A DNA stretch of 64,000 bases from a virus, in IMG/VR virus record IMGVR_UViG_3300033067_000817, one strand, 5' to 3'. Both the position numbers and the translations under genes were made by a program. Below, one piece after another: positions 24,495 to 64,000 of this stretch. Numbering within the stretch: the first letter of the stretch is position 1; every line of letters begins with the position of its first letter. A model generated the notes under the pieces. It ran no database searches. It was given only the letters and a program-made list of their open reading frames with translations, and had not been told where the DNA came from.

Positions 24495-24550
24495 TGATCT
24501 TTTGTTGATTTTCCTTTCGTTTTTTGCTAATAATCTGTGTTGATTACATA

Positions 24551-25160: not shown

Positions 25161-25170
25161 ATCAGATCAT

Positions 25171-31742: not shown

Positions 31743-32387
31743 ATGCTAGATTTGTGGAAGACAGCATATCACAAGTCTTTAAAAAGATCAAAGAAGCTAA
31801 AGACTATGCAGACAGCCACTAATTGCACTACACTAGAAGAGCTCAAGAAATGTGCTGATGCATGTAATCTTTGTGAGATATCAAAGAACAGAACTCAAGC
31901 CGTTTTTAGCAACAAAGCTAATAAGCCTTGCAAAATTATGTTCATTGGTGAAGCACCAGGTTTTAATGAAGACATAGATGGTGAGCCGTTTACTGGTGAG
32001 TCCGGTCAAATGCTTACTAGAATGATTACCAATGGTCTTAAGCTCACCCGTGATGATATATACCTAGCTAATATACTCAAATGTAGGCCTCCCGATAATC
32101 GGGAGCCTTCTCCTGAAGAGACTGCCAATTGCACACCGTGGCTAGACAGACAAATTGAGCTTGTCGACCCTAGGATTATCTTCACTTTAGGTAATCATGC
32201 TACGAAGCATGTACTCAAAACAAAAGTAGGCATCAGTAAGTTACGAGGTACGATAATTCCGCAAGGCAATAGAATAATTGCCCCGCTGTATCATCCAGCT
32301 TATCTACTTCGTAATCCTGATGCAAAATCCCAATTCTGGGAAGATGTACAACGAGCAATAGCTTACAATGAAGTACCAGTCGTCTAA
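31743..32387 (+). CDS. udg: uracil-DNA glycosylase, family 4
   Basis: GEAPG motif (FIGEAPGFNED), PFTGESGQML, and the HPAYLLRNP HPS/A-type motif B. Confidence 0.75.
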   Translation: MLDLWKTAYHKSLKRSKKLKTMQTATNCTTLEELKKCADACNLCEISKNRTQAVFSNKANKPCKIMFIGEAPGFNEDIDGEPFTGESGQMLTRMITNGLKLTRDDIYLANILKCRPPDNREPSPEETANCTPWLDRQIELVDPRIIFTLGNHATKHVLKTKVGISKLRGTIIPQGNRIIAPLYHPAYLLRNPDAKSQFWEDVQRAIAYNEVPVV

Positions 32388-38276: not shown

Positions 38277-38918
38277 ATGGATGATAATCTAAACATATTC
38301 ACTGGTAGAGTAACATTTTGTAAAGAAAAACGTGCTGGCACCAATAGCTTTGGTACAATAAGCTTGCGCATTATGCAAGATATTAAGACCTTCCAGCTAG
38401 GTGCCAAGACGATGTTCATTAGCGATCCTACCATATGGGTTAGTGTCAAGGCTAACTATAATGGAAATGCCCTTCAAGACAAAGAGCAAGTAGTTTTGAA
38501 TGAAGGTACCGCTGGTAAGTACATCATTATTAGTGGAGCAAAGCTTTCTGACTATGAGTCGATAGCCAAGGACAGCGCAGGTTTAGCTATACCTGGAGCT
38601 CCTAAGGAAACTAAGTTTACAATAGAATGTAGCCCTAGCAATTGCTCATTCTCTAATACGCCTTATAAAGCAGAAAATACATCTATTCTGATTGGCTATA
38701 TCACAGATATACTAGGCCCTAATCAGATTAGAATCAAAATTCCGTATAGAGCCAAGACAGAGACTAAGTATCGTAAAGCTGATATTTATGTTGAAGACAG
38801 TTCAACTTTAAGCATGAACAAGCGAGTTCTGATAACAGGCTCTGTCTTTGGCAAGACACCTGACCCATCTAAGAAAGATGCGGTCTATGTCGTTGCAGAA
38901 AGTATAACAACACTATGA
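38277..38918 (+). CDS. hypothetical protein
   Basis: 213-aa ORF in the operon array. Confidence 0.35.
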   Translation: MDDNLNIFTGRVTFCKEKRAGTNSFGTISLRIMQDIKTFQLGAKTMFISDPTIWVSVKANYNGNALQDKEQVVLNEGTAGKYIIISGAKLSDYESIAKDSAGLAIPGAPKETKFTIECSPSNCSFSNTPYKAENTSILIGYITDILGPNQIRIKIPYRAKTETKYRKADIYVEDSSTLSMNKRVLITGSVFGKTPDPSKKDAVYVVAESITTL

Positions 38919-39235
38919 CAAAACCGAATGTAACCCTATTAGGGTGTAGAGTTCTAGTTCAGAAGACTGAACCTGACAGTACTTCAATTGGTGGTATATT
39001 ACTACCTCCTTCTCAAATCAAGAGAAATACCGAAACCGGTATAGCTATTGAGGTTGGCAAAGGCTATACTATGCAAGATGGTAAAATAATACCACTTACA
39101 GTAAAGGCTGGGGACAATCTCATCTATAACCGAATCGGTAGCGTAGAAGTCAAGATAGATGGCAAAGAATATATCATAGTCAATGAGACTGATATTCTAG
39201 CAGTAGTACACGAGAGCAAGAAGTCAAAAGTATAA
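38915..39235 (+). CDS. GroES-like co-chaperonin (Cpn10 fold)
   Basis: LLGCRVLVQKTEPDSTSIGGILLP..KAGDNLIYNR..IIVNETDILAVV is collinear with GroES (PLHDRVIVKR..ETKSAGGIVL..VGDIVIFN..LIMSESDILAIV). Confidence 0.55.
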   Translation: MTKPNVTLLGCRVLVQKTEPDSTSIGGILLPPSQIKRNTETGIAIEVGKGYTMQDGKIIPLTVKAGDNLIYNRIGSVEVKIDGKEYIIVNETDILAVVHESKKSKV

Positions 39236-39255
39236 TAGTATCTAGCACAATGAAA

Positions 39256-39290
39256 AGACTGGGCGAAAGCTCAGTCTTTTTTTTTGGATT
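39256..39290 (+). terminator. intrinsic terminator
   Basis: AGACTGGGC-gaaa-GCTCAGTCT followed by a 9-T run. Confidence 0.65.
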
Positions 39291-42430: not shown

Positions 42431-44426
42431 GGGAGAATTTGGCTATACACACTTGAAAGAAAGTGTGCTTTATGCCAATTTTGACTTTGTATGGCAAGAC
42501 TTGTCGTGGTTCATAGCTAATGGTGAATTCGAAGATCCTTGCATCTGGCTAAATCCCACCGACTCAACGTTATTTAACAATACCCAAATCATTATGAAAA
42601 GCACATTTAAAGATGGCGCTTTTCCTATGGATGATATTGATATTACGTTGGCTCCGATTTCTGCAAATAATAGATTTGCTCTTAAAAAGGTAGTCTATGA
42701 CGATGTAGCAAATCCGTCTAGAAAGTATGTTATCATAACTAAGAACACAAAGACCGAAGATTTCTACAAAGAACTTCGAGACTATTGTGTTATTAAGACT
42801 TATGCTCAATATACTAAAGCTCTAGACTGGCTCATAATGAAAGTGAATGGCAAAAATTCATTTGCAGCTCAAAAAGAAATGATGGCCAAGCTAACTAACA
42901 AGGTTGCTAATGGTACAGCTCAAGTTAATCAACATCTAGTTGATTACTTCAACAGCTTCATGAATAGAGCTTCATCTGTTAAACTTAATGTCATTCTTCC
43001 ATTTGATGACACGGATCTACTTAACTTCTATCATGAAGTTTACTCTACTGATCCAGGATTTGGTGCTAACAAATTAGTGTTCTTTGATGAAAGATCAGTG
43101 CTAGCTTCAAGTAGAAACTCTTCAATTAAAGATCTTAGGGAAAACATGTGCGTCTATCTAGGCAGAACAAAAGCTGCTGATTTAGGTGCAAATTTCTTCC
43201 TAGTGACTCATACTGGAGAGAAAAACTGCTCTATACTAGAATTCGTAATGACTTCAGATTATTCGTCCTTCCACATTAAGTGTGTAGGCGATATAACTGA
43301 GAAAAATGGACGATCACCTAGCTTAACTTCAGACATAGTCAAATCTAACAAGATTTGTCAAGAAGTTCGTAAGTTCCTAAAGATATCCGAAGATAATGAA
43401 ATTCCAGGATGCGTTGAAAACATTGATATCGAACATATCGATGCTGTTATGACATTCTTAGATAATCATTGTTCATCTTCTCCATCATTTGATATTCTTG
43501 ACAAGGCAAGATATAACATAAATGACTGGAGTGGCAAATTCACTAATACAGTCAAGGTTAAGATTTCCAAGCCTGAGTGTATATACTTAAGTGCATTTGA
43601 AGGTAAACTAGAGGATCTTACTAATCAACGAATAACTGAATTCAATAACTGCATTAGCAAGTTTAGCGATCAGTGGATCCAATATAAAGATCCATTTGAG
43701 AAGTCTAGGGTTGCTGATAGAAAAGATCAGTTAGCTAATAGAATCGGTGAAGTTTACACAATCTTAAAGAATCCAATTAAGGCACATATACACCTTATGT
43801 TGGGCAACTCTAAGATAGACCGTCCTTATGTCATATTGACTAGTGACTCTGGTGAGGTCAGACCTGACCCTGCTAGGAAGTTCACTAGCACATTTGATAT
43901 GAGCACCTCGGTTAGTAGAAATGACCCGGTGATATTGCCAGACTTTAGTTGCTTACCTATTTTGATAGCCTTAAGAGGGCTATTGAAAGAGTGGAGTGCA
44001 GTCTTTGAACAAGCTGAGATTAGATTCAGTAAAATGAAAGTAGCCTATGATGATCCAGAGTCTGTCTCTAACAAGAGAACACGCATCCATAGAATGCTTA
44101 ATTTAATGTATAAGAATCTCTGCGAGGAAAATGGACTTCCTTATGTTGAGCTAACTGACTTAACCTCAATGAACGCTAGCGGTAGGTCAAACTTCATAAT
44201 TTGGCACAATAGTGTCAAACATACAGTTGACTTGAATGCTTTACGAGATTTTCAGCTATTGAATACACTGTATTACATAGCTATGAACGAAATGATTGAA
44301 AACGGAACTTTCTTTAATACAAAAGGAAGTAGCAATATCTTGGCTAGACCAGCAGATACTGCGGCATCCGTTTTAAGAGACAATTCATATTTATACTGGA
44401 AGTTAATGAGATCTATATATGCCTGA
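42387..44426 (+). CDS. hypothetical large protein (679 aa)
   Basis: Long ORF with no recognised motif. Could be another RNAP subunit fragment or a structural protein. Confidence 0.45.
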   Translation: MKLQTAVMRLSSPSKGEFGYTHLKESVLYANFDFVWQDLSWFIANGEFEDPCIWLNPTDSTLFNNTQIIMKSTFKDGAFPMDDIDITLAPISANNRFALKKVVYDDVANPSRKYVIITKNTKTEDFYKELRDYCVIKTYAQYTKALDWLIMKVNGKNSFAAQKEMMAKLTNKVANGTAQVNQHLVDYFNSFMNRASSVKLNVILPFDDTDLLNFYHEVYSTDPGFGANKLVFFDERSVLASSRNSSIKDLRENMCVYLGRTKAADLGANFFLVTHTGEKNCSILEFVMTSDYSSFHIKCVGDITEKNGRSPSLTSDIVKSNKICQEVRKFLKISEDNEIPGCVENIDIEHIDAVMTFLDNHCSSSPSFDILDKARYNINDWSGKFTNTVKVKISKPECIYLSAFEGKLEDLTNQRITEFNNCISKFSDQWIQYKDPFEKSRVADRKDQLANRIGEVYTILKNPIKAHIHLMLGNSKIDRPYVILTSDSGEVRPDPARKFTSTFDMSTSVSRNDPVILPDFSCLPILIALRGLLKEWSAVFEQAEIRFSKMKVAYDDPESVSNKRTRIHRMLNLMYKNLCEENGLPYVELTDLTSMNASGRSNFIIWHNSVKHTVDLNALRDFQLLNTLYYIAMNEMIENGTFFNTKGSSNILARPADTAASVLRDNSYLYWKLMRSIYA

Positions 44427-44982
44427 CGATAGTGCTGACTCTGATGAGTTACCAAAAACGCTGAGTGATGTAATAGACACGATTGAGTCAATCGAAAACA
44501 CAAGATTTCCAACAATCAAGACCTTCTTGGAAATAGATCAATATTTTGGTCAATTTACAGAAGCTCTTGCTATTGTAAAGTCTTATGAAAGTGAGAATGA
44601 CTACAATTTGTCAAAGATGAATAGCGACCTTCTAAAGCTATCCGCCATTAGGGTCAGCACTTCTCAGCTTGTAGGCTTCTTGCAGGGCTATGCAAGAAGA
44701 TCTGAAGATGAACGTAAGATAGTCAAGAGTCATTATGCAGCTGCCATTAAGCGAGCTAGAGACAACCTTAGTAAACAAGGTGTCACTATTAAGCTAAATG
44801 ATACAGATGCAGAAGATAACTCAAGAATCTTAGCAAAAGCCCAATATCAGGAAGCAGCAGACGCTGAGACCATTAGTAGAATGGTATCACAATCATGGTA
44901 TGCCATAGGTGACTTTTGCAATATACTGAACGCATCAATTAATAGAGAACACCAGGAACTGACGAAGCTAGGGCTAAAATAG
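44419..44982 (+). CDS. hypothetical protein
   Basis: 187-aa ORF overlapping neighbours by a few nt. Confidence 0.35.
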   Translation: MPDDSADSDELPKTLSDVIDTIESIENTRFPTIKTFLEIDQYFGQFTEALAIVKSYESENDYNLSKMNSDLLKLSAIRVSTSQLVGFLQGYARRSEDERKIVKSHYAAAIKRARDNLSKQGVTIKLNDTDAEDNSRILAKAQYQEAADAETISRMVSQSWYAIGDFCNILNASINREHQELTKLGLK

Positions 44983-45165
44983 GATGTGGTTTGCTAAGTA
45001 TAATAGGAATTCACCCAAACTAGGGCCATTTAAAACCCAAGAAGAAGGGTGGATTAAGCTAGTTGATGCAAAGACTGGCGAAGTAGACGTAGAGTCACAA
45101 GTTTGGTTTGTAGAAGACAATCCTGTACAATCCGGAAATAAAACCGAGATTAAACAGATGTACCC

Positions 45166-45768
45166 ATGTCAAGTGGTACCAAGAGTCAGGAACTACAAGG
45201 TTGTATAGGAGTTAACCAAATGGACAAGTCTCCCAAGAACAAAGACGACGAGAATCTCATAAACAACGAGCTCTTAGAGCAAATTCAGGACGAGACTTTA
45301 GGTCCAAATGGGAGTAGGATACTTCGAAACTACTTCGATAACTTTACTAAGTCTGAACCTAATTGTGCTAGGTCTATTAACAGAGTTATACACATTTATG
45401 GGACAGTACTATTAAACTCAGCTGTACAGCGTCTTGCTGTCGAAGGTCAAGAGATCCCTACTGAGCAAGTTAAGGAATACGCCGATCTTATCGGTGATTC
45501 TCTTAGAATGGTCATGGCTGCTGGCATGATCTATGGTAAGGCTCGTTTAGACCATGAGTTCATGAAGACAATACGCGGCTCTGAGCTAGAAGCCAGAATA
45601 TGCGAAATTCAGAACTTAGCTGAACAGTCAGCACAGGCAATAGATCTAAATGAGATGATGAAGAACAATATCACTCCAAAGGATCTGTTAGCACAGCTCT
45701 TCGATATTGAATTTGAAGAAGAAGATGACGAAGAAGATCCACCTGATAATTTGGAGCTAAATGGATAA
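45166..45768 (+). CDS. hypothetical protein with acidic C-terminus
   Basis: 200 aa. C-terminal EFEEEDDEEDPPDNLELNG. Confidence 0.35.
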   Translation: MSSGTKSQELQGCIGVNQMDKSPKNKDDENLINNELLEQIQDETLGPNGSRILRNYFDNFTKSEPNCARSINRVIHIYGTVLLNSAVQRLAVEGQEIPTEQVKEYADLIGDSLRMVMAAGMIYGKARLDHEFMKTIRGSELEARICEIQNLAEQSAQAIDLNEMMKNNITPKDLLAQLFDIEFEEEDDEEDPPDNLELNG

Positions 45769-46261
45769 CAAGCGAAAAATAGGTGATGACCTAGAAGACC
45801 GGGTTCTCAAGAAATTGGGGCCCGGTTTCACTTTAAATGGTAACTCTGGTGCTACCTTTAGTAATGGCGACATTAGGCACAGAAACCTAGTTGTTGAGTG
45901 TAAAGTAAAGAACAGCACTGAAGGGTTTACCTCTCCGTTAGCTGAACTCAAGAAGCTTTGGGCTTTAGCCAAGAAGGAATGCAAGGATTGGCTCTATATT
46001 GAACAAAACCAAGATAATAAGATAATGGTCTTGGTTGAGTTTGATGCTTTCCTTGAAATGACTGAAGATTGGCGTAAAAAGCAAGTTACTGAGCCTACAT
46101 TTAAGGAATCTGATAATGAGTACCTAAATGGAAGCTATAACTACTGTCAAGAGTGTGATGCTTCAATTAAACCTGGTGAAGGATACTGCAAATCATGCGT
46201 GGAGCACTTTCGAGATACTGGCAAAGGGTCAAACTCCGTAGGTCTAATCTGGCTAGATTAG
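45761..46261 (+). CDS. Hjc-like Holliday-junction resolvase / PD-(D/E)xK nuclease with C-terminal zinc ribbon
   Basis: GDDLEDRVLKKLG and GDIRHRNLVVECKVK match the archaeal Hjc core (G..AERELI..L...G, D..A...IEVK). C-terminal CQECD..CKSC. Confidence 0.5.
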   Translation: MDNKRKIGDDLEDRVLKKLGPGFTLNGNSGATFSNGDIRHRNLVVECKVKNSTEGFTSPLAELKKLWALAKKECKDWLYIEQNQDNKIMVLVEFDAFLEMTEDWRKKQVTEPTFKESDNEYLNGSYNYCQECDASIKPGEGYCKSCVEHFRDTGKGSNSVGLIWLD

Positions 46262-46483
46262 AAGCTGAATTAGAGGCTGCAGATAGAGATTATACCTACT
46301 ATAGGGATCGACTATTTGCTGCCACGATAGCTAATATAAAAGGAGAGCCTTTTGAGATAATCTATAAAGCATGGAAAGATTCAGCTAATAGATTTATAAA
46401 AGCACAAAAAGCTTGTCCAGTAGTTATCTGGCCTCAGCGTTGGTTCTATTATCTCACAGGTCACACATTGTCAATGTTTTGAG

Positions 46484-46520
46484 GGCTTAATGTCCTAAAA
46501 AAGTGGTCCTAAATTCAGAG
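46484..46520 (+). promoter_or_regulatory. bipartite promoter-like motif GGCTTAATGTCC-N15-AAATTCAGA, copy 1
   Basis: Same two boxes with identical 15-nt spacing occur at 59192-59227. Located 14 nt upstream of the DNA ligase start. Confidence 0.5.
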
Positions 46521-46533
46521 AAAGTCAAGGGGT

Positions 46534-47691
46534 ATGTCAAAAAACGTAGATTTTTCAGTTATTGGTAAGGTAGTTTATTCTAATAGCAAGCACGGTAAGA
46601 TAAAAACGTGGTCTTGTGATGTTTTTCAAGATAAAGTTAAAAAAGAAGTAAAGCTAATTATCCAATCAGCTACAGGTCTTGAATCTAAGAAGATTGTTAA
46701 CGAAGAAGTCATTTCTGGCAAAAATATTGGTAGAGCCAATGAAACGACTCCACTAGAACAAGCCCAACTAGAGGCTTTATCGAGATATAAGGAAAAGTTC
46801 GATAAAGGCTATGACCTAGGAATGCCTAAGTCTGATATTCAAAGGAATACACTAGGATTCCCTATGCCTATGCTAGCATACCCACTAGACAAGGTAAAAG
46901 ATGGACTATTATTCCCATGTATTGTACAGCCTAAGTTAGATGGACATAGATGCATGATCGACATGGTTAAGAAGCAAATGTATAGCCGTGGAGGTCAAGT
47001 TATTGATACAATGCAGCATATACTAAAGGCTGCAGAAATAGCTTCTATACCATATGTACATAACGAAGTAGTAATAGATGGTGAACTATATATACATGGC
47101 AATAAGCTACAAGATACAACAGCACTAATTAAGAAGTATAGACCTGGTGAGTCTGAGAAAGTAAAGTATGTAATATATGATATATTCTATACTAAAAATC
47201 CTCACTATGGTGAACGACTACAGCTACTAGAGAAAACATTTAGCAAGATAAGTAACTCTTCTATAGAACTAATACCATCATACATAGCTAATAACATTGA
47301 AGAGGTAATGCAATTAAGAGATGATGCTATATCTGAAGGCTATGAAGGTGTAATGTATAGAAGGCTAGACTGTGCATATGAACCAGGTCATAGAAGCTAT
47401 GGGTTATTGAAGGTTAAGAAGTTCTATGATGCTGAATATAAAGTTATTGATATTGTCCCTAGTAAAGAACGCACAGTTAATAACGAGGAGCGAGTGTATG
47501 GTCTGTTGGTTTGCCGTACTAATGGAAAAGACTTTACCGTAACTGCCCCAGGTACTGCAGAAGAAAAAGCAGAAATCCTAGCAAACAAATCACAGTATAT
47601 AAACAAGCTCGTTACAGTTAAGTATGCTAGTATGTCAAAAGATAAACTACCACAGCATCCTGTAGCTTTAAGATTTAGAGAAGACGTATGA
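46534..47691 (+). CDS. lig: ATP-dependent DNA ligase
   Basis: Motif I KLDGHRCM, motif III DGELYIHG, motif IV EGVMYRR and motif V LLKVKKF in canonical order and spacing. Confidence 0.8.
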   Translation: MSKNVDFSVIGKVVYSNSKHGKIKTWSCDVFQDKVKKEVKLIIQSATGLESKKIVNEEVISGKNIGRANETTPLEQAQLEALSRYKEKFDKGYDLGMPKSDIQRNTLGFPMPMLAYPLDKVKDGLLFPCIVQPKLDGHRCMIDMVKKQMYSRGGQVIDTMQHILKAAEIASIPYVHNEVVIDGELYIHGNKLQDTTALIKKYRPGESEKVKYVIYDIFYTKNPHYGERLQLLEKTFSKISNSSIELIPSYIANNIEEVMQLRDDAISEGYEGVMYRRLDCAYEPGHRSYGLLKVKKFYDAEYKVIDIVPSKERTVNNEERVYGLLVCRTNGKDFTVTAPGTAEEKAEILANKSQYINKLVTVKYASMSKDKLPQHPVALRFREDV

Positions 47692-48044
47692 AGACTACAC
47701 ATCAAGCTGTCTATGACAATGCAGGACAAGTCCTAAAAGTAGGAGACATGGTTGTCTACCAATACGATAGACAGTTTAATAGAAAATATATAGGAAAGAT
47801 AATTCGTATATCAGACCATGTAACTTCAAAGCTACATAGGGTTTTAATAACCATAAGTGTCATACAACAAGGTAGTGAACTTAGAACTCCTGGATTTGAG
47901 TATGATATATACTCTGATGTAGTAACTTTAATCAATCCTAATGCATTGAATGAATTAGTAGAAGCTAATAGGAAGATTGAATACCTTACTAAGGAACTAG
48001 AGAAGCTAGAAGCTAAGCTAGCCACACTAGAAGTCAAGCAATAG
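47688..48044 (+). CDS. hypothetical protein with C-terminal coiled coil
   Basis: C-terminal heptad LTKELEKLEAKLATLEVKQ. Confidence 0.35.
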   Translation: MKTTHQAVYDNAGQVLKVGDMVVYQYDRQFNRKYIGKIIRISDHVTSKLHRVLITISVIQQGSELRTPGFEYDIYSDVVTLINPNALNELVEANRKIEYLTKELEKLEAKLATLEVKQ

Positions 48045-48238
48045 TATGTCAATAGAAAAAATAGATGACGCAGGCGATAAAGATAGCTTCACCGAGTTAA
48101 TAGAACTCGTCACAGTCTTCCTACAGTCTAATGATACACCTATTAAAGATAGATTATTAGTTGAACGTAAAATTAAAGAATACCAAGATAAGAATACACA
48201 GGACTGGCTACTTAATTTGTTGCTAGCAGTACATAAGA

Positions 48239-56623: not shown

Positions 56624-59018
56624 GAAGCTCCTTAAAGATCCAATAGTGACAGAGAACGCTCTTAAGGTATTAGAAGAACGGTACTTAGCTAAGAATGATT
56701 TCGGTGAGATCATCGAAACTCCTAAGCAAATGTACATGAGAGTAGCTGAAGCTGTTGCTTCTGCTGAAGAAGATGACAAGGCTAGAACCTATTATGCTCA
56801 TATGTTTTATAACATAATGGCATCTAATGAGTTCATGCCTAATAGTCCTACGCTGATGAATGCTGGACGTAGACTAGGAATGTTATCAGCATGCTTTGTG
56901 TTACCTGTAGAGGATGACCTTGATAAGATCTTCGATTCTGTTAAAGCTACTGCAATGGTCCAAAGGGCGGGCGGGGGAACCGGCTATAATTTTAGCAATC
57001 TGCGTCCTAACGGTAGCATTGTTAAGTCTAGTGGGGGCACTACTGCTGGCCCTCTTTCTTTCATAGACGTATTCTCACAAGCTACCAGTACAATACAACA
57101 GGGCGCGTTCCGTCGTGGTGCCAATATGGGCATCATGAATATAGACCATCCTGATATCATTGCATTCATTCAAGCTAAAGAAGATCTAACTCGTTGGCAG
57201 AACTATAACATCTCTGTTGGTATGACAGATGAGTTCATGTCAACACTAGAGACTCAACCTAGAATGCAACACAGAGTTTACCATAAGGAATGGGGTACTG
57301 GTGGTCTCTATAAGAAAGATGGCAAAGTTATAGCCATTAAAGACTACAGTACAGAAGGTAAAACACCTGATGCACCTTATGAAAAATGGACTGTAGGTGA
57401 TACATGGGATTTGATATGCAAGAGAGCCTGGTCTACTGGTGAGCCAGGCTTGTTCTTTATAGATGAAGCCAATAGATTTGATCCTATTGCACATCTTGGT
57501 AGAATAACAAGCACTAATCCATGTGGAGAACAACCACTACACGCGTGGGATTCTTGCAACCTTGGTAGCATTAACCTATCGCTAATGGTTGACGACCAAG
57601 GCTTTGACTGGGATCAGTTCAGACATGTTATACAGTTAGGAGTTAGATTCCTAGATAACGTAGTAACAGTTAACAACTATCCATTGCCACAGATCCGTGA
57701 GATGTCTAGCAAGACTAGACGTATTGGTTTAGGTGTAATGGGTTTTGCTGACTTACTATTTAAGCTAGGTATACCATATAACTCTGAGTCTGCAACGCTT
57801 TTAGCAGAGTCTCTTAGCAACTTCTTAAAGACAGAAGCCGAGCAAGAGTCTCAACATCTTGGTAAGATAAAAGGTAACTATGGAGCATACATAGGTTCAA
57901 AACATCATAAGAAAGATGTGCCTATGCGTAATTCATATGTAACTACTATTGCTCCTACTGGTACTATTAGTATCATAGCTAATTGCTCTGGTGGTATTGA
58001 ACCTATATTCGGTTTATCATTCAAGCGTACGGTAATGCCTGATGCTAATGGTGTCTTCAAAGAAATGTATGAAGACAATCCACACTGGCTCAAGGCTTTA
58101 TCTAAGCTAGACCCAGATAAAGCTAAGCGCTATAGAGAAGCAGCTAGAGCTCATGGCTATTTGCCAGATGATATAGTTAGAGCAGACTCAGTAGGTCAAG
58201 AGCTTCAAAGTGTATTTGTTACTGCACATGAGATAGAACCTCTAGAGCATGTAGCTATGCAGGCTGCATGGCAAACTCATATTGATAGTGCTGTATCAAA
58301 GACTATCAATATACCTCATGATGCAGATATAAGAGTAGTATCAGATGCCTATTGGGAAGCTTACTGGACTAAATGCAAAGGTATTACAGTCTATCGTGAT
58401 GGCTGCAGAGACAATGTGGCTGGCATGAAGCAGCCTATGAGTATTGAAAAGCCAACTGAACTTCATACTGTTGAATCTTCAGGTATAGTTAACCCCAAGC
58501 CACCTGAGTCTCCATCAGGTAGTATTCCTACAGATGTCTTCCAATCATTTAGGACTCAGATCAAAACACAATTCGGTAATCTGCATGTGCACACCGTGCT
58601 CAACGAACAGGGCACAGCAGAGACAGAAGTCTTTGCCCAGCTCGGTAAGGCAGGAGACCTCATTGCAGCAGACCTCGAAGCAATCTGCCGGTTGGCATCG
58701 ATGGCTCTTAAGAATGGTGCCTCGATTGAGAAAGTAATAGAGCAATTAGAAGGCATTGGTACTACACATATCATGCCTAGTGAACATGGTAAGATCACAT
58801 CAATGCCTGACGCACTAGCTAAGGCTCTAAAGAAGTATGTCAAACATAAACACTCCAGAGAAAATGTATCCGCTACAGGTGATACACCTGTTACAAAAAG
58901 CGGACGAGATAAGACAGAGTCAAGCTATGGAATCAAATGCCCCGCATGTAGTATCGGTACCCTTGCCTTCCAAGAGGGATGCAAGAAGTGCCACAGCTGT
59001 GGATTTTCAGCCTGTTAA
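56556..59018 (+). CDS. nrdJ: ribonucleotide reductase, class II (adenosylcobalamin-dependent, NrdJ-like) with C-terminal zinc ribbon
   Basis: NALKVLEERYLAKNDFGEIIETPKQMYMRVA N-terminal block, TNPCGEQPL active-site motif, SCNLGSINL, and C-terminal CPACS..CKKCHSC. Start chosen at the internal ATG 56556 (ORF track starts at 56451). Confidence 0.85.
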   Translation: MTQQTPQPKQPTSPTKTSTILDEKLLKDPIVTENALKVLEERYLAKNDFGEIIETPKQMYMRVAEAVASAEEDDKARTYYAHMFYNIMASNEFMPNSPTLMNAGRRLGMLSACFVLPVEDDLDKIFDSVKATAMVQRAGGGTGYNFSNLRPNGSIVKSSGGTTAGPLSFIDVFSQATSTIQQGAFRRGANMGIMNIDHPDIIAFIQAKEDLTRWQNYNISVGMTDEFMSTLETQPRMQHRVYHKEWGTGGLYKKDGKVIAIKDYSTEGKTPDAPYEKWTVGDTWDLICKRAWSTGEPGLFFIDEANRFDPIAHLGRITSTNPCGEQPLHAWDSCNLGSINLSLMVDDQGFDWDQFRHVIQLGVRFLDNVVTVNNYPLPQIREMSSKTRRIGLGVMGFADLLFKLGIPYNSESATLLAESLSNFLKTEAEQESQHLGKIKGNYGAYIGSKHHKKDVPMRNSYVTTIAPTGTISIIANCSGGIEPIFGLSFKRTVMPDANGVFKEMYEDNPHWLKALSKLDPDKAKRYREAARAHGYLPDDIVRADSVGQELQSVFVTAHEIEPLEHVAMQAAWQTHIDSAVSKTINIPHDADIRVVSDAYWEAYWTKCKGITVYRDGCRDNVAGMKQPMSIEKPTELHTVESSGIVNPKPPESPSGSIPTDVFQSFRTQIKTQFGNLHVHTVLNEQGTAETEVFAQLGKAGDLIAADLEAICRLASMALKNGASIEKVIEQLEGIGTTHIMPSEHGKITSMPDALAKALKKYVKHKHSRENVSATGDTPVTKSGRDKTESSYGIKCPACSIGTLAFQEGCKKCHSCGFSAC

Positions 59019-59191
59019 TGAGCCAATGAAAAGCAACACAAGCTTATTCGATCTTATTCAAGATAACACTAGTCAACTAGTAGATGTCTATATCAAGATT
59101 GAAGCTATGCCAATAGATGAGATAGCAGAGATGCAAAACTCTTTAGATTCTTATGCAATAAATATCATAGGTATAAGAGTAGCAAACTAAA

Positions 59192-59227
59192 GGCTTAATG
59201 TCCAGTTTTTTAGTAGAAAAATTCAGA
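59192..59227 (+). promoter_or_regulatory. bipartite promoter-like motif GGCTTAATGTCC-N15-AAATTCAGA, copy 2
   Basis: Same boxes and 15-nt spacing as 46484-46520. About 10 nt upstream of the ORF at 59236. Confidence 0.5.
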
Positions 59228-59478
59228 AAGAAAAAATGACACCTATAGAAGCAGCTCAAGCTATACATAGCCTTACTGAAAAGATTAAGCCTATGGCTGA
59301 GTCTATACAAAAGGCTGGGTATCTTACTGGAAGTGGACCTGAGTTTCGTAGATCATTGTTAGTAGTAGAGTTAGCAGACATAAACAATAAGTTTACTAAC
59401 AACCCTATACATATGATTTGCAAGAAGAAACTAAGGAGCACTGCGCCTTACAAGAAGTGTAAGGTTAGCGGCAAATAA

Positions 59479-59874
59479 ATGAAACGAAGCATTCTTAAGG
59501 AATGCCTAAGGATATCTAAGCTACATAATACCCCTGAATCTCACCCCGACTGGGGGAGCTATCATCACTATTCATTTATCATTCAAAAGAATAAGATAAT
59601 AGAGTGGGGAACAAATAGCGGGGGTGGTGGTCTAAACCATTGGGGTTTCAAATCCAATAGGCATAAGATACATTCAGAAACACGGGCCTTCACAAGGGCC
59701 CGTGGTCTTTTAGATAAGAACAAGTCCTTTGAAGTAGTCAACATACGACTCAACAAGCTAGGAGACCTCAGAGTCTCAGCACCTTGTAAGTGTTGCTGTC
59801 GCTTCTTGCAAGCTATGGACTGTAGTAAGATATGGTTTAGCACTGAAGCTGGGTGGGCTTCTATGAAAGTTTGA
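59479..59874 (+). CDS. cytidine/deoxycytidylate deaminase-fold zinc-binding protein
   Basis: HSETRAF (H-x-E) and SAPCKCCCRFL (PCxxC) zinc-ligand motifs with CDA-like spacing. Confidence 0.5.
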   Translation: MKRSILKECLRISKLHNTPESHPDWGSYHHYSFIIQKNKIIEWGTNSGGGGLNHWGFKSNRHKIHSETRAFTRARGLLDKNKSFEVVNIRLNKLGDLRVSAPCKCCCRFLQAMDCSKIWFSTEAGWASMKV

Positions 59875-60624
59875 TATGGCAAAGATAAACATTCAAGAAA
59901 ACAAACGTATACTTTTTAGTAGTATCCAACCTGGATGTATATTTCTATACTACAAGGTTGCCTATATTAAAATTGTAGAAGTATACTCTAAAAACTGTGT
60001 TGATTTAAATACTGGTTTTGGATATAAGCTTGACCCTAAATGTCCTATACTATTGCCACAAGAAGCTACAATAGAAATCAAAATAACATGAGCAAACTAA
60101 ACATTATAACTTCAGTAAAGCCCACTATACCTTGGGTAGACTTTGGAAAGCTATCTCCAGGACAGGTATTTAAATGGGCTGGTGAGTTAAACAAAACCTA
60201 CATGAAGCTATATAAAACAGAGTCTTCAATGAATGCTGTTGATCTTACTACTGGTTATTGCACAGACTTTGAACCAGACGCAGGCGTCTTGGCTACTAGT
60301 AAAGCTACATTGGGTGTGGAGTTTCCTGCATGAGTAAGTTAGTTACAAAAATCCAAGTCCCTAAGTGTAAAGACATTGAACTTGAATATCTTAGACCAGG
60401 TGATGTCTTTATGTTTAATAATAAGCTTCATATAATGACTAGTGCATCTAGTACTCCTAGATATATTAAAGCATTAGACTTAGAAGACTTTACTATATGG
60501 GACTTGCAAAAACAAGACATAGTAGTCCCTGTTGAAAGTGCAGTGCTAGATATCAAGAAGTGATGACTGTTTTTGTTTTTCCTTTTTGATTTGATCATTC
60601 CTTTGGTAAGTAAGTAAAAATAAT

Positions 60625-61920
60625 ATGGCTAAGACATCAACACAAAACAAGAACTGTTCACACTGCGGCTCCAAGTGGAAGAAGGCACACAAGCCTAACT
60701 GCTCACGTCCTAATGCACGTAGAGCACCCAAGGCCCCGGTGCCGGTTCCTCATCACGTTCAAGCTACGATGAACTTCCCGACTCATACACAGACCTGTGG
60801 TCCTGTCTCTACTCAGACAGCATTGACCCAGAGCTTCGTCAAGAGAATGCCGGGCACTCCTGCTAATCCTCCTGCTGTAGCTAAGAAGCTAGTCAATAGA
60901 GTCGTTTGGATTCTTGATGATAGTGGTTCGATGGCAGGCCTAAGAGAAAAGGCTCTTCAATACATTGAACGTGACATGCTAGACTTCAAGGCAGCTGCCA
61001 AGACCAATGATCAGCCGACCTATATGAGTGTTTATCAGTTCTCTGATAATGTCGTAAAGCTAATGGATCAAGTATACTTTGAAGCTGCATCTATGCCAGC
61101 AACAAACAATACATCTGGCATGACAGCTTTATATGACGCTATTGGCATGGCTATTCAAGATATAAATAGACAAGCCGACATTAATGATTCTAATGTTAGT
61201 GTTCTTATTAAGATCATAACTGACGGTCAAGAAAATGCGTCTCATCATTTCAAGCGAGATCAACTTATAGCTATGATCAAAGCTGGACATGACACCGGCC
61301 GCTGGAGCATTGGCTATAGTGGTCCTCTAGGCTGCAGAGCTTACGCAGCAGGCTTAGGTATTCCTGATGGTAACATCTTGGAATGGGAACAAACTGTAGC
61401 AGGTGTAGGCATAATGGCAGCTGCAAACTACTCAGCTACCCAAAGCTATATGTCCACCAGATCTGCTGGTGGTACTGCTATCAGTGGCATGTACTCCACT
61501 GACTTATCTAAGGTCAACGCTAACACCCTCAATCAAATGACTGACTTGTCTTCAGAGTTCCATTGCTGGACTGTTGATAAGGGCGAAGTTGAGATCAGCG
61601 ACTTCGTTAACAGCAAGCTCAATGCTAACTCTGTCCTATCTAAGAAGGTTGGTGGTGTTATCCAATTGGGTCGTGCCTATTACCAGCTCACTAAGACTGA
61701 GAAGGTACAGGCTGCTAAGGACATGCTCCTACTTAACAAGGCTACTGGCCGCATCTATGGTGGTGCACAAGCCCGTACGCTTATAGGCCTTCCTGCTAAT
61801 GTTGATATCAAGGTGACGCCTGGTAACCATGCGAACTTTGATGTCTTCGTTAGAAGCACTTCTACTAACCGTAAACTCGTAAGAGGTACGAAGCTCTTGT
61901 ACCGGACTGGCGCTGTGTAA
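60625..61920 (+). CDS. vWA domain protein with basic, Cys-containing N-terminus
   Basis: VVWILDDSGSMAGL MIDAS motif. N-terminal CSHCGSKWKKAHKPNC. Confidence 0.5.
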   Translation: MAKTSTQNKNCSHCGSKWKKAHKPNCSRPNARRAPKAPVPVPHHVQATMNFPTHTQTCGPVSTQTALTQSFVKRMPGTPANPPAVAKKLVNRVVWILDDSGSMAGLREKALQYIERDMLDFKAAAKTNDQPTYMSVYQFSDNVVKLMDQVYFEAASMPATNNTSGMTALYDAIGMAIQDINRQADINDSNVSVLIKIITDGQENASHHFKRDQLIAMIKAGHDTGRWSIGYSGPLGCRAYAAGLGIPDGNILEWEQTVAGVGIMAAANYSATQSYMSTRSAGGTAISGMYSTDLSKVNANTLNQMTDLSSEFHCWTVDKGEVEISDFVNSKLNANSVLSKKVGGVIQLGRAYYQLTKTEKVQAAKDMLLLNKATGRIYGGAQARTLIGLPANVDIKVTPGNHANFDVFVRSTSTNRKLVRGTKLLYRTGAV

Positions 61921-62570
61921 TGGCGAGCTCAAATGTAATTCTACCTACAGTTAAAAGTAAAGGTGAGAAAGAAAGATCTATTGCAGTAGCTAAAGATGTA
62001 TTAGAACAACTTAAGCTAGGCAAGTTTATTGCTGCTCATGTTTATGTAGATCCAAAGTACTCTCAAAATGTTGAGGCCGGCTGGAACGGACCCGCTTGTA
62101 CTTTAGATGTACAAAAAGCTCTTAAGCAAAACAAGATAGTAAAATGTCATGTTTGTGCAATGGGCTCTGTCTTTATGTCATATGCTAATCTGTACAATAG
62201 CGTTACTACAGATGACATACATACAAGCAACGGTGTGTCTACATCCTCAATGTATGATACATTAAAAGATACTTTTACATTAAAAGAATGCATTCTAATA
62301 GAATGGGCATATGAAAAAGGTATGTCGGATATTCTATCTTTTAATCTTAAAAGCTCCGATGCCGAAGGCTATATTATAGCTTGGAATACAGACTATTATC
62401 ACAGTGAGTCACTAGATGAGGCTATTAATTCTGATTCTGCTATAGTCATTACATGTGAAGAGCTAAATAAGGCTAAGAAATTTGGCACGAAGTATCGAGG
62501 CTCTCGTAATAGACTAGAAGCTATTATGAAAAAGATAATTAGAGACAAAGGAGTCTTTGGCTTCAAATGA
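61920..62570 (+). CDS. hypothetical protein
   Basis: 216-aa ORF. Start overlaps the upstream stop (TAATG). Confidence 0.35.
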   Translation: MASSNVILPTVKSKGEKERSIAVAKDVLEQLKLGKFIAAHVYVDPKYSQNVEAGWNGPACTLDVQKALKQNKIVKCHVCAMGSVFMSYANLYNSVTTDDIHTSNGVSTSSMYDTLKDTFTLKECILIEWAYEKGMSDILSFNLKSSDAEGYIIAWNTDYYHSESLDEAINSDSAIVITCEELNKAKKFGTKYRGSRNRLEAIMKKIIRDKGVFGFK

Positions 62571-63367
62571 ATAAAGAAGTAAAAGCCAAATGGCTTAAGG
62601 CTTTGAAGGCTAAGCGTAACGGCAAGAAGGTCTATAGAAAAGCCAAAGGCTCGCTTAGACATCGTGGTGGATACTGTTGCTTAGGTGTATTATGCAACAT
62701 ATCTAAGCTCGGCAAATGGGACGAAGACAACTACTATATTACCGAAAAAGACTTAGACAACACTGAGCTTCCAAAGGATGTCTCTTGCTGGGCAAAGATA
62801 AGTCCCGATGAGGAGATTGATCTTATTAGACTGAACGACGATCACGACAAAGGATGGAAGCAAGTAATAGCATACATAGAAAATAATCTATGAGACTATC
62901 GGGACAGTAGATCCTACATAAGTATAGTATAGATAGGGGATGTAATTAAATACAGCGATCGATACCTGGCGCAAGTGTATCAACAAGATCATCTTCACAC
63001 CCCTGCGCTACATCGTTAACTCTATCTATAAAGACCCCTATACTTTAGTAGGAACTCTGGGATGGAGGGCATCATTAACTAACAACTAATGTTGAGGCAC
63101 GCCACGCGTGTCGGGCCCGATGGTCATGAGATACATAAATGAGTAGGCAAACAGGGGATTAAACCCATACGTAAGGGGCCATAGGTTATAGCGCTTGGAC
63201 ATTTAAAAGAGGACTGTAGTGCACTGTTCAGAAGCTCCCTAAGTGAAACCAAGTAAAATATCCGACTGGCAAGTCTAGAACTACATGCTATGGTGTGATG
63301 CCGTAGCTGCCTACTTGTTTTTTTATACTTACAGAATACATAGTTAAACAAATCAAAGGAATAATAT

Positions 63368-63769
63368 ATGATAACAGATACAATTGAAATAGTTTCTAAG
63401 GTCATTCATGCTAAGTATAAAAGTAGCCAGTTGACTAAGAAAGATATTGCAGAGAAAACCAATTTAGCGCTTAACACAATCAACAACGCTATCACTGGTA
63501 AGAATATGACACTAAACTCTATGCTCCTTATAATGGATGCATTGGGTATGAATATGAAGGACCTAGTTGACGAAGCCGAAAAGCTAGGCCTTAAGTTTCC
63601 AAAGCCAGGGGCTAAGCCCGTTGGGGTTAATGTCCCTGAGGTTAAGAAACTCCTAGATCAAGGGCAGTCTACCATGCAGGTAGCTGCAAAGATAGGCGTA
63701 GAAGAAAAAGAACTAAAGGAAATAGTTCAAGCTTCTTCACCCGAGATGAGCATGTTCGAGATCAAGTAA
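63368..63769 (+). CDS. XRE-family helix-turn-helix regulator
   Basis: LTKKDIAEKTNLALNTINNAITGK helix-turn-helix. Confidence 0.5.
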   Translation: MITDTIEIVSKVIHAKYKSSQLTKKDIAEKTNLALNTINNAITGKNMTLNSMLLIMDALGMNMKDLVDEAEKLGLKFPKPGAKPVGVNVPEVKKLLDQGQSTMQVAAKIGVEEKELKEIVQASSPEMSMFEIK

Positions 63770-64000
63770 GATCAATGTAGCACTAGCAAACTAGTGTTAC
63801 ATTTAAGGTAGCCGGTTCCTATGACATACCAATATCGTGACCACTCTTTATCCTCTTACGATACTTATCTAATGGCTAGAGAGTATCTTGAAAAGGAAAA
63901 TGTAGAAGTTTCAAAAGAAAACTTCAGGGCTTTATGCAATACATTGGTGACATATATGTCATTGTATTATAAAGCTGCCAGAGAAAGCATAGCCAATGAT

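What the first reader, a model, noticed from the sequence alone, without database searches (positions are those of the whole stretch)
46484..59227. Bipartite conserved motif with fixed spacing upstream of two genes (candidate phage promoter)
GGCTTAATGTCC, then exactly 15 nt, then AAATTCAGA occurs at 46484-46520 (before the DNA ligase) and at 59192-59227 (before ORF 59236). Each copy is 10-14 nt from the start codon. Two boxes with identical spacing is the signature of a promoter, possibly for the phage-encoded multisubunit RNAP, or of a regulatory protein site.
Basis: seen in the sequence. Interest (0 to 1): 0.6.

Follow-up and report, generated by a model that had tools for sequence, protein, structure and literature searches.

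The report
Conserved promoter-like motif in phage clade
The two identical two-box sequences are real members of a short, one-directional DNA signal found between gene blocks in a group of uncultivated large phages; it is most likely a phage-specific promoter, which is an ordinary kind of element, and no transcription start has been mapped.

Summary
GGCTTAATGTCC-N15-AAATTCAGA occurs exactly twice in the window (46484-46519 and 59192-59227, + strand), against 0 expected by chance. The two boxes are 21/21 identical while the spacers match at 1 of 15 positions.

It is more than a two-copy coincidence. I found 12 further copies in 8 related, syntenic metagenomic phage contigs (ligase 41-46% identical where listed, DnaE 54-56%). 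The family consensus is GGCTTAATRYCC, then an A/T-rich spacer, then A3-8T1-5C, then rAAAG. Every copy lies on the coding strand. Every copy starts at or just after the end of an upstream ORF, or overlaps it. One copy always lies ahead of the ligase-RecA-RT-DnaE-RNR block.

A relaxed two-part pattern gives 10 coding-strand hits and 0 on the other strand in 0.21 Mb of clade DNA (0.63 expected). It gives 1 hit in 2.2 Mb of unrelated phage DNA. No RNA fold, hairpin or Rfam family fits.

The best explanation is a clade-specific promoter read by a phage-encoded specificity factor or by the phage's own multisubunit RNA polymerase.

Caveats:
- The exact N15 spacing is not conserved across the family (11-18 nt).
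- One relative's copy is followed at once by a strong terminator.
- No transcription start site and no recognising protein are known.

It is a new member of a known kind, of modest interest.

The parts
46484..46495 (+). Box 1, copy 1: GGCTTAATGTCC. It begins 1 nt after the TGA of ORF 46195-46482.
   Evidence: Exact match. Family consensus is GGCTTAATRYCC with G1, C3, T4, A6, T8 and C11 invariant in 13 aligned sites.
46496..46510 (+). Spacer, copy 1 (TAAAAAAGTGGTCCT), holding an A6 tract at 46497-46502.
   Evidence: An A6 or T5-6 tract starts 13-16 nt after the start of box 1 in 8 of 12 sites. The spacer resembles those of L064 1272 and L067 9744.
46511..46519 (+). Box 2, copy 1: AAATTCAGA. With the preceding T it forms a -10-like TAAATT at 46510-46515, 17 nt after the TTAATG of box 1.
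   Evidence: The family equivalent is A3-8T1-5C.
46520..46533 (+). Purine-rich stretch GAAAGTCAAGGGGT. It contains the recurrent rAAAG piece and an AAGGGG Shine-Dalgarno-like sequence before the ligase ATG.
   Evidence: rAAAG(S) recurs 0-4 nt after box 2 in most family members.
46534..47691 (+). ATP-dependent DNA ligase gene, the first gene of the ligase-RecA-RT-DnaE-ClpP-RNR block downstream of copy 1.
   Evidence: Pfam PF01068 and PF14743, PHROG 114. Synteny in L063, L064, L067, L092, L093 and L096.
45761..46261 (+). RusA-like resolvase gene. It is the conserved neighbour that anchors the homologous junction in relatives.
   Evidence: PHROG 2002 and 244. tblastn gives 50-67% identity in six relatives. 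The element lies just after this gene (L067, L092, L093) or just before it (L064, L096).
59192..59203 (+). Box 1, copy 2: GGCTTAATGTCC. It begins 1 nt after the TAA of ORF 58837-59190.
   Evidence: Exact match.
59204..59218 (+). Spacer, copy 2 (AGTTTTTTAGTAGAA), holding a T6 tract at 59206-59211.
   Evidence: It matches the copy 1 spacer at only 1 of 15 positions.
59219..59227 (+). Box 2, copy 2: AAATTCAGA. A -10-like AAAATT lies at 59218-59223.
59236..59478 (+). 80-aa ORF of unknown function, the first of a run of tightly packed small ORFs (59236-60563) downstream of copy 2.
   Evidence: No Pfam or PHROG hit and no homolog in the relatives fetched.

Best explanation
The two sites belong to a clade-specific promoter class.

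Proposed mechanism (inferred):
- Box 1 (GGCTTAATRYCC) is the specificity element. A phage-encoded protein reads it on double-stranded DNA. That protein could be a specificity subunit of the phage's own divergent multisubunit RNA polymerase, or a sigma-like or activator factor acting on host polymerase.
- The A/T-rich spacer and the A-run/T-run box (AAATTC in this genome) supply the easily melted, -10-like region.
- Transcription starts in or just after box 2. It runs into the purine-rich rAAAG leader and the downstream gene block: the ligase-RecA-RT-DnaE-ClpP-RNR block for copy 1, and the small-ORF block after RNR for copy 2.

What is shown: the existence of the element, its conservation, strand bias, placement, lack of RNA structure and clade specificity.

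What is inferred: promoter activity, the start site and the identity of the reader protein.
For: 1. Selection on the boxes. They are 21/21 identical while the spacers match at 1/15. Box 1 is nearly invariant in 13 aligned sites from 9 genomes (a 14th, degenerate copy is not in that alignment) whose ligase and DnaE proteins are only 41-56% identical.
2. Specificity and direction. The two-part pattern gives 10 hits on the coding strand and 0 on the other in 209,557 bases. Shuffles give 0.63 for both strands together, with a maximum of 3. There is 1 hit in 2.2 Mb of unrelated DnaE-encoding phage loci.
3. Placement.
- Seven of the eight exact GGCTTAAT 8-mers in the window, L063, L064 and L067 start within -6 to +5 nt of an upstream ORF's end.
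- The remaining copies begin a few to about 12 nt after an upstream gene's stop or overlap it.
- In 9 of 14 sites the next start codon follows box 2 by about 8-19 nt, leaving no room for a separate promoter.
- A copy precedes the ligase block in the window and in all six relatives where that junction was recovered, although its position moves around the RusA-like gene.
- Other copies sit after RNR (window, L094, L095) or before the VWA/AAA block (L063, L064).
4. One copy (L094) is followed by tRNA-Val and then a gene, so the element is not tied to translation initiation.
5. The constraint looks DNA-level, not RNA-level.
- A6 and T5-6 tracts interchange at the same offset.
- Positions 9-10 of box 1 are GT or AC, the same base-pair step read on opposite strands, in 11 of 13 sites.
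- RNAalifold predicts 0 pairs. Single-sequence folds have z-scores of 0 to -0.6.
6. The geometry is compatible with a promoter. TTAATG-17 nt-TAAATT at site 1, and an xAAAAT-like hexamer 11-18 nt after box 1 in all sites.
7. There is precedent. Phage sigma-dependent promoter classes are few per genome, lie at module starts and contain TAATG: phiEco32 tAATGTAtA with 6 promoters, and phage 7-11 GTAAtg-(16)-aCTA with 8 promoters (PMC8948821). In RNAP-encoding jumbo phages a highly conserved motif marks promoters (PMC7598289).
8. The phage encodes beta- and beta'-like subunits.
Against: - No transcription start or expression data exist for this uncultivated clade.
- The distance from box 1 to the -10-like hexamer ranges over 11-18 nt across the family and varies within single genomes (L063 11-15, L064 14-17). 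That is looser than a rigid bipartite promoter.
- The L064 1272 copy is followed immediately by a 16-bp terminator hairpin (-27.5 kcal/mol, z = -6.8). The homologous junction in the window holds only a terminator.
- The ATG inside box 1 of the L063 20096 copy is the start codon of a conserved small gene, so that copy lies inside coding sequence.
- With a start site about 7 nt after box 2, the leader at site 2 would be only about 6 nt long. In L095 the GGAG ribosome-binding site would then lie upstream of the start.
- No sigma-like or helix-turn-helix candidate reader was found among the window proteins scanned.
- Only 2 copies occur in 64 kb.
- The ORFs abutting both window copies (46195-46482 and 58837-59190) have no homologs in the relatives, so they are unverified genes.
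Confidence: 0.55

Rival explanations
1. It is an operator rather than the promoter core. Box 1 would be the binding site of a phage DNA-binding regulator (activator or repressor) that switches the replication/recombination block and the next block on or off, while a weak, unrecognised promoter nearby does the initiating.
For: - Box 1 is far better conserved than an ordinary -35 element.
- Its spacing to the A/T box is loose, as expected if two different proteins read the two parts.
- The low copy number and the fixed association with particular gene blocks suit a regulon.
- The constraint appears to be DNA-level.
Against: - Box 1 is not palindromic or repeated, unlike typical dimeric operators (read).
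- All 14 copies have the same orientation relative to the genes, which a simple repressor site does not require.
- In 9 of 14 sites the whole intergenic region is the element itself, leaving no room for another promoter.
- Sigma-70-type matches in the region are at shuffle background (55 found, 55.1 expected), and neither site is called.
Confidence: 0.15
2. It is an RNA-level signal in polycistronic transcripts. The single-stranded sequence would be read by a phage RNA-binding protein or endoribonuclease to cut, stabilise or translationally control the downstream message, as T4 RegB and RegA do with their sites.
For: - All copies are on the sense strand and intergenic.
- Box 1 hugs the upstream stop codon and box 2 lies 8-19 nt from the next start codon in most sites.
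- The L064 copy sits between a stop codon and a terminator, so there it would be transcribed as a 3' untranslated region.
- The short-leader problem of the promoter model disappears.
Against: - There is no conserved structure.
- A-runs and U-runs interchange in the spacer, and GU/AC alternate in box 1. These are equivalent on duplex DNA but not in RNA.
- The L094 copy precedes a tRNA about 75 nt away, not a start codon.
- No RegA-like, RegB-like or other RNA-binding or nuclease family was found next to the sites.
- Sequence-specific unstructured 12-nt RNA sites are much rarer than promoters. This last point is a prior, not a test.
Confidence: 0.15
3. It is a termination or pause signal without a hairpin, for the phage polymerase, marking the ends of transcription units.
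For: - Box 1 is anchored to the upstream gene's stop more tightly than to the downstream start.
- At one junction the element and an intrinsic terminator are interchangeable or co-occur: L063 has the element only, L064 has the element plus a terminator, and the window has a terminator only.
- Several copies carry a T5-6 run just after box 1.
Against: - Half of the copies have an A-run in place of the T-run.
- There is no hairpin.
- In 9 of 14 sites a gene starts 8-19 nt after box 2 with no room for a new promoter, so efficient termination would silence the ligase and the other downstream genes.
- The L094 copy is followed by a tRNA and a gene.
Confidence: 0.05
4. It has no function of its own. 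It would be a scar or boundary sequence left by duplication, module exchange or a small mobile cassette.
For: - The position of the copy shifts by one gene around the RusA-like gene among relatives.
- L063 carries a tandem pair, at 9885 and 9949.
- Different junctions carry it in different genomes.
Against: - Box 1 is nearly invariant across genomes whose proteins are about 50% identical, while the spacers are saturated with change. Neutral scars would have decayed.
- Strict orientation and placement.
- Absence from 2.2 Mb of other phages.
- Mobility of a regulatory cassette is compatible with the promoter model rather than a true alternative to it.
Confidence: 0.04

Closest known systems
Late promoters of Salmonella phage 7-11, read by phage sigma factor gp47: GTAAtg-(16)-aCTA (PMC8948821)
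   Same: - Two boxes, with the upstream box containing TAATG.
- Spacer of about 16-17 nt (TTAATG-17-TAAATT at window site 1).
- Few copies per genome (8).
- Located at the starts of gene modules.
- Much better conserved than host promoters.
   Different: - The downstream box differs (aCTA versus A-run/T-run + C).
- Here box 1 is longer and G/C-clamped (GGC...CC).
- Spacing is loose across this family.
- No sigma gene was found in the window.
- The phages are unrelated.
Middle/late promoters of phage phiEco32, read by phage sigma gp36: single element tAATGTAtA with the start site 6-8 bp downstream (PMC8948821)
   Same: - They share the TAATGT core with box 1 (TTAATGTC).
- One dominant, highly conserved element with non-conserved surroundings.
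- Six copies per genome, at module starts.
- If box 1 worked this way, the loose spacing to box 2 would not matter.
   Different: - 5 of 13 family members have TAATAC rather than TAATGT.
- A start site 6-8 nt after box 1 would fall in the A6/T6 tract, which is untested.
- No gp36-like protein was identified.
Promoters of jumbo-phage multisubunit RNAPs: vRNAP early motifs (about 10 nt, AT-rich, near -10), phiKZ late T(-3)ATG(+1), and AR9 late AACA-N6-T(A/G) (PMC7598289)
   Same: - The phage encodes split beta/beta'-like subunits.
- As with early vRNAP promoters, a highly conserved motif is detectable by sequence alone upstream of operons.
- Box 1 contains AATG, close to the phiKZ TATG.
   Different: - Box 1 is not AT-rich.
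- TATG is absent, and the ATG is missing in 5 of 13 sites.
- No AACA-N6-T(A/G) occurs at either site (read).
- Copy number is far lower than for jumbo-phage early promoters.
- The RNAP subunits match the phiKZ/AR9 ones only in their catalytic cores.
T4 middle promoters: MotA box (a/t)(a/t)(a/t)TGCTTtA at -30 plus a sigma-70 -10 element (from established knowledge)
   Same: - GGCTTAA resembles TGCTTTA.
- An activator-type upstream box would replace the -35 element, followed by a -10-like A/T hexamer.
   Different: - The MotA box lies about 12 nt upstream of the -10 element. Here the gap from GGCTTAA to the -10-like hexamer is about 16-23 nt.
- No MotA or AsiA homolog was seen among the window proteins scanned.

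Membership tests
Sigma-70-type bipartite promoter | -35 hexamer close to TTGACA and -10 hexamer close to TATAAT (at least 9 of 12 matches) | tested here: not met
   The consensus scan of 44001-64000 lists 55 sites against 55.1 expected, and neither 46487 nor 59195 is among them. TTAATG matches TTGACA at 3 of 6 positions. TAAATT and AAAATT match TATAAT at 4 and 3 of 6 (read).
Sigma-70-type bipartite promoter | Spacer of 17 +/- 1 nt between the two hexamers in all members | tested here: not met
   The spacer is 17 nt at window site 1. Across the family the best xAAAAT-like hexamer lies 11-18 nt after box 1, which is 14-21 nt after TTAATG.
Jumbo-phage virion-RNAP early promoter | An AT-rich, highly conserved motif of about 10 nt centred near -10, with many copies upstream of early operons | tested here: inconclusive
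   A highly conserved motif exists, but it is G/C-clamped and rare (2 copies in 64 kb). The start site is unknown, so its position relative to -10 cannot be judged. The definition is from PMC7598289.
phiKZ non-virion RNAP late promoter | T(-3)ATG(+1), with all four bases required | tested here: not met
   Box 1 has TAATG, not TATG. Five of 13 members have TAATAC or TTATAC and so lack the ATG. The definition is from PMC7598289.
AR9 non-virion RNAP late promoter | A(-11)ACA-N6-T(A/G)(+1) in uracil-containing DNA | tested here: not met
   No AACA occurs in either 36-nt site or its leader. The phage also encodes a UDG-superfamily protein (31743-32387), which argues against uracil DNA.
Promoter class dependent on a phage-encoded sigma factor (phiEco32 gp36 or 7-11 gp47 type) | A phage gene for a sigma-family protein | tested here: inconclusive
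   None of the 40 window proteins scanned against Pfam had a Sigma70 region 2 or 4 or other sigma hit. However, not every window ORF was scanned. About 9 kb of the 73,430-bp source contig was unavailable, as was any genome sequence beyond it.
Promoter class dependent on a phage-encoded sigma factor (phiEco32 gp36 or 7-11 gp47 type) | Transcription start sites 6-9 bp downstream of the conserved element | not testable with these tools
   This needs 5'-end mapping, and no expression data are available for this clade.
T4 MotA-dependent middle promoter | MotA box TGCTTtA about 12 +/- 1 nt upstream of a -10 element | tested here: not met
   The gap from GGCTTAA to TAAATT is 19 nt at site 1, and 16-23 nt across the family.
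Intrinsic (hairpin) terminator | A G+C-rich stem-loop followed by a U-run | tested here: not met
   Folds of both sites have z-scores of -0.6 and 0.0. The terminator scan calls neither site. The alignment gives 0 conserved pairs. True terminators in the same genomes fold at -22 to -27 kcal/mol.
Structured cis-regulatory RNA (any Rfam family) | A match to a covariance model, or a conserved secondary structure | tested here: not met
   The Rfam gathering scan of the whole window finds only tRNAs and a Pistol ribozyme elsewhere. RNAalifold on the 13 sites gives no structure.

The most novel reading that the evidence does not exclude
Box 1 plus the A/T box could be the promoter of this clade's own highly divergent multisubunit RNA polymerase, read by an unidentified specificity subunit. 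It would then be a sequence-defined, non-AT-rich, two-part promoter for a phage multisubunit RNAP driving replication genes. For the known jumbo phages, promoters of that class (middle/late) could not be predicted from sequence (PMC7598289). It would also give a handle for finding the promoter-recognition subunit, by looking for co-variation with the GTCC and ACCC box variants.
Probability: 0.25. Interest if true: 0.6.

Novelty: new member of a known kind. Interest (0 to 1): 0.35.

Why it matters
If it is a promoter, the motif marks transcription-unit starts in a clade of uncultivated large phages. Contigs carrying related DnaE genes reach about 196 kb. The clade combines several unusual features: split multisubunit RNAP genes, a retron-type reverse transcriptase, a Ro60-like protein, a Pistol ribozyme and many tRNAs.

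A 12-nt specificity box conserved across about 50% protein divergence is a practical handle. It can be used to annotate operons in these genomes, to fish out the protein that reads it, and to test whether replication genes are transcribed by the phage polymerase or by a redirected host polymerase.

As a kind of element it is ordinary. Phage-specific promoters with a conserved box at module boundaries are well known.

Tried and rejected
- Recent duplication: rejected. The spacers match at only 1 of 15 positions and the flanks do not align.
- Paralogy of ORF 59236 with ORF 2597, suggested by repeat D16: rejected. The proteins are unrelated.
- Exact motif in public DNA: none found in IMG/VR or in GTDB genomes. 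The two metagenome hits have an 18-nt spacer and cellular contexts, so I take them as chance.
- Source contig: it is known only through identical proteins on a 73,430-bp JGI contig. Its DNA could not be fetched.
- Close relatives in GenBank phages or IMG/VR: none. Megablast gave nothing, tblastn with the RNAP beta-like protein gave nothing, and DnaE hits were 38% identical or less. I used those loci as a negative control.
- A conserved mini-ORF starting at the ATG in box 1: rejected. The lengths range from 2 to 18 codons, the sequences are unrelated, and the ATG is absent in 5 sites.
- The TAATG in box 1 as a general stop-start coupling signal: it holds in only 3 of 14 sites.
- RNA hairpin or structure: rejected.
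- Sigma-70 promoter: the scan is at background and calls neither site.
- Other general intergenic motifs in the window. TGTAGCA has no shared extended context. The CCAATATATTGG palindrome is frequent in the relatives' RT-DnaE spacers but has no exact copy in the window.
- Literature search for the box sequence itself: only irrelevant primer hits.

Full report
**1. The observation**

A search for GGCTTAATGTCC-N15-AAATTCAGA with up to three mismatches returns exactly two matches. Both are perfect and both are on the + strand, at 46484-46519 and 59192-59227. None of 100 dinucleotide-preserving shuffles gave a match. Copy 1 ends 14 nt before the ATG of an ATP-dependent DNA ligase gene (46534-47691; Pfam PF01068 at 1.9e-23, PHROG 114 at 1.6e-77). 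Copy 2 ends 8 nt before the ATG of an 80-aa ORF with no family hit (59236-59478). Each copy begins 1 nt after the stop codon of an upstream ORF (46195-46482 and 58837-59190).

The two 15-nt spacers agree at a single position and the flanks do not align. The 21/21 identity of the boxes is therefore maintained by selection rather than left by a recent duplication. The window holds no degenerate third copy:
- A two-box scan allowing up to 7 mismatches and spacers of 13-17 nt gives only shuffle-level background.
- A weight matrix built later from 13 family members scores the two sites at 21-23 bits. Nothing else scores above 16 bits.

**2. The genome**

Nearly all genes are on the + strand. The window encodes:
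- a beta-like RNAP fragment (34149-36029; Rpb2_6 at 3.3e-17) and a beta'-like fragment (29871-31460), which match phiKZ/AR9-type PHROGs and solved RNAPs, including AR9 nvRNAP 7S00_C, only in the catalytic cores;
- DnaE, class II RNR, RecA, ClpP, GroES, UDG, a retron-type RT, a Ro60/vWA-like protein, seven tRNAs and a Pistol ribozyme.

Nothing similar exists in GenBank phages or IMG/VR. Megablast found nothing, tblastn with the beta-like protein found nothing, and DnaE hits were 38% identical or less. Identical ligase and DnaE proteins sit on a 73,430-bp JGI contig whose DNA I could not fetch. The nearest cellular DnaE sequences are from Planctomycetota, at about 41-42% identity.

**3. Relatives and the wider family**

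Ligase and DnaE homologs (ligase 41-46% identical where listed, DnaE 54-56%) led to eight syntenic contigs from Logan and JGI assemblies: L063, L064/L065, L067/L068, L092, L093, L094, L095 and L096. They carry 12 more copies of the element:

| Copy | Sequence |
|---|---|
| L063 1060 | GGCTTAATGGCC-taattttcgt-AAAAAATTC |
| L063 9885 | GCCTTAATGTCA-gctttttcttccc-AAAATTC |
| L063 9949 (degenerate tandem copy, 14 nt before the ligase start) | AGCTTTATGCCC-...-AAAAATTTTC |
| L063 20096 | GGCTTAATGTCA-...-AAAAATTTTTC |
| L064 1272 | GGCTTAATACCC-caaaaaagtcatcc-TAAAATC |
| L064 9406 | GGCTTAATGTCA-...-AAAATTTTC |
| L067 9744 | GGCTTAATACCT-aaaaaaggcaatc-TAAAAC |
| L096 3795 | GGCTTAATGTCC-aggttttttattggcc-AAAAAAAATC |
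| L092 4268 and L093 3939 | GGCTTATACCC-...-AAAAAATTTTC |
| L094 7841 | GGCTAATACCC-...-AAAAATTTTC |
| L095 6770 | GCCTTAATCCC-...-AAAAAAAATTT |

In the 13-site alignment, G1, C3, T4, A6, T8 and C11 of box 1 are invariant. Positions 9-10 are GT (6 sites) or AC (5 sites). Box 2 survives only as A3-8T1-5C. It is usually followed within 0-4 nt by rAAAG(S).

**4. Is it more than chance, and is it specific?**

A relaxed two-part pattern (box 1 regex plus A3+T2+[CG] within 35 nt) was tested three ways:
- In the 209,557 bases of clade DNA it gives 10 hits on the coding strand and none on the other.
- One hundred dinucleotide shuffles give 0.63 for both strands together, with a maximum of 3.

Of the eight exact GGCTTAAT 8-mers in the window, L063, L064 and L067, seven start within -6 to +5 nt of an upstream ORF's end.

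**5. Placement**

A copy lies ahead of the ligase-RecA-RT-DnaE-ClpP-RNR block in the window and in all six relatives where that junction was recovered. Its position shifts from just after the conserved RusA-like gene (L067, L092, L093) to just before it (L064, L096). In the window and in L063 it lies after that gene with one small ORF in between.

Other copies follow RNR (window copy 2, L094, L095) or precede the VWA/AAA block (L063 1060, L064 1272). In 9 of 14 sites the next start codon follows box 2 by about 8-19 nt, so the element fills the whole intergenic space. In L094 the element is followed by tRNA-Val (7941-8015) and then a gene.

**6. What it is not**

- It is not a structured RNA. 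Single-sequence folds have z-scores of -0.6 and 0.0. RNAalifold on the 13 sites predicts no pairs. Rfam finds nothing at either site.
- It is not a hairpin terminator. Real terminators in these genomes fold at -22 to -27 kcal/mol.
- It is not a sigma-70 consensus promoter. The scan is at background (55 found, 55.1 expected) and calls neither site.
- It does not encode a conserved peptide. The ORFs opened by the ATG in box 1 are 2-18 codons long and unrelated, and five sites have no ATG.

**7. DNA level or RNA level?**

Two features favour recognition of duplex DNA:
- A6 and T5-6 tracts interchange at the same offset after box 1.
- The GT/AC alternation at positions 9-10 is the same base-pair step read on opposite strands.

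Both are equivalent in duplex DNA but not in RNA. I regard this as supportive, not decisive.

**8. Best explanation**

The element is most likely a clade-specific promoter. Box 1 would be the specificity element. The A/T-rich spacer and the A-run/T-run box would be the melting, -10-like region. The purine-rich rAAAG stretch would be the initial transcribed sequence or leader. The geometry at window site 1 (TTAATG-17 nt-TAAATT) fits a sigma-family layout.

Experimentally defined analogues exist. phiEco32 gp36 promoters are a single element, tAATGTAtA, with the start 6-8 bp downstream and six copies. Phage 7-11 gp47 promoters are GTAAtg-(16)-aCTA, with eight copies at module starts (PMC8948821). 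For RNAP-encoding jumbo phages, a review notes that a highly conserved motif marks vRNAP early promoters, whereas middle and late promoters (phiKZ TATG, AR9 AACA-N6-TA/G) are short and hard to predict (PMC7598289).

The present motif matches none of these definitions (see the membership table), so I claim a functional analogy, not membership. Which polymerase reads it is unknown. No sigma-like or HTH protein was found among the window proteins scanned.

**9. Evidence against, and rivals**

The -10-like hexamer lies 11-18 nt after box 1, and this varies within single genomes.
- The L064 1272 copy is followed at once by a 16-bp terminator hairpin (-27.5 kcal/mol, z = -6.8). The homologous junction in the window has only a terminator, and L063 has only the element.
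- The L063 20096 copy overlaps the start of a conserved small gene. That gene is also present in the window at about 56229-56530.
- If the start site follows box 2, the leaders are very short.
- The ORFs abutting the two window copies are unverified.

The rivals kept are an operator for a phage regulator (0.15), an RNA-level processing or translational-control site (0.15), a non-hairpin termination or pause signal (0.05) and a functionless boundary scar (0.04).

**10. Verdict**

The promoter or regulatory-site interpretation is partly supported: the element is real, conserved, directional and placed like a promoter. The fixed-spacing argument does not generalise, however, and the link to the phage RNAP is untested. 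It is a new member of a known kind of element, of modest interest. Its main value is as an annotation and experimental handle for an unusual, uncultivated phage clade.

Noticed in passing
window 16517-16584 (+): Pistol self-cleaving ribozyme (Rfam RF02679): 55.1 bits against a gathering score of 34.5, full-length match. It lies in the tRNA-rich non-coding region.
   Followed up: no
window 24541, 24662, 25264, 25452, 25575, 25676 (+); also L092 22764/22976, L094 14601-15228, L096 21054-21731: A second conserved repeat family, wTTAATCT-N5-TGATTACAT. It can form a hairpin (TAATC/GATTA arms with a variable loop). Each copy is followed 15-35 nt later by a tRNA T-arm-like GGTTCGAwTCC. All window copies lie directly upstream of the Ro60/vWA-like gene 25856-27520. 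ARAGORN and Rfam do not call them. They may be tRNA-like or Y-RNA-like genes, or a small-RNA promoter class.
   Followed up: partly
window 50302-51444 and 51650-52209: A reverse transcriptase whose best match is the retron St85-type RT (148 bits, below the cutoff of 235). It is conserved next to DnaE in all relatives. A 560-nt non-coding, hairpin-rich region follows it. In relatives the same region carries 2-3 copies of the palindrome CCAATATATTGG, which has no exact copy in the window.
   Followed up: partly
window 39254-39285: A textbook intrinsic terminator (GACTGGGCGAAAGCTCAGTC followed by a T10 run; -22.5 kcal/mol, z = -4.9) right after the GroES (Cpn10) gene 38915-39235. It sits at the junction where L063 and L064 carry copies of the motif.
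   Followed up: yes
window about 56229-56530: A conserved small gene (about 100 aa; 60% identical to the L063 and L064 homologs) lies between ClpP and RNR. It overlaps the mechanically called RNR start at 56451, so the true RNR start is probably further downstream. Several relatives' RNR genes carry an intein with an HNH domain.
   Followed up: partly
window 18053-19237: An adenylosuccinate-synthetase-like gene: Pfam PF00709 at 2.6e-40, NCBIfam PurA at 112 bits and PurZ at 45 bits. Both NCBIfam scores are far below their cutoffs. Whether it is a PurZ-type enzyme for 2-aminoadenine DNA is open.
   Followed up: partly
window 12460-25247: Seven tRNA genes (Lys, Tyr, Leu x2, Met, Ser, Phe) and many further tRNA-like fragments (D-arm and T-arm words) are scattered through the non-coding stretches between 9.6 and 25.9 kb.
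   Followed up: no
window 4868, 22776, 22921, 24502, 60570 (+): A T-rich intergenic repeat, TTGTTGTTTTTCCTTTTGTTTTT. All five copies lie between genes. Its function is unknown.
   Followed up: no
window 52210-55659: The closest cellular relatives of the phage DnaE are from Planctomycetota (and one Chlamydiales MAG), at about 41-42% identity. This is a weak hint about the host lineage.
   Followed up: no
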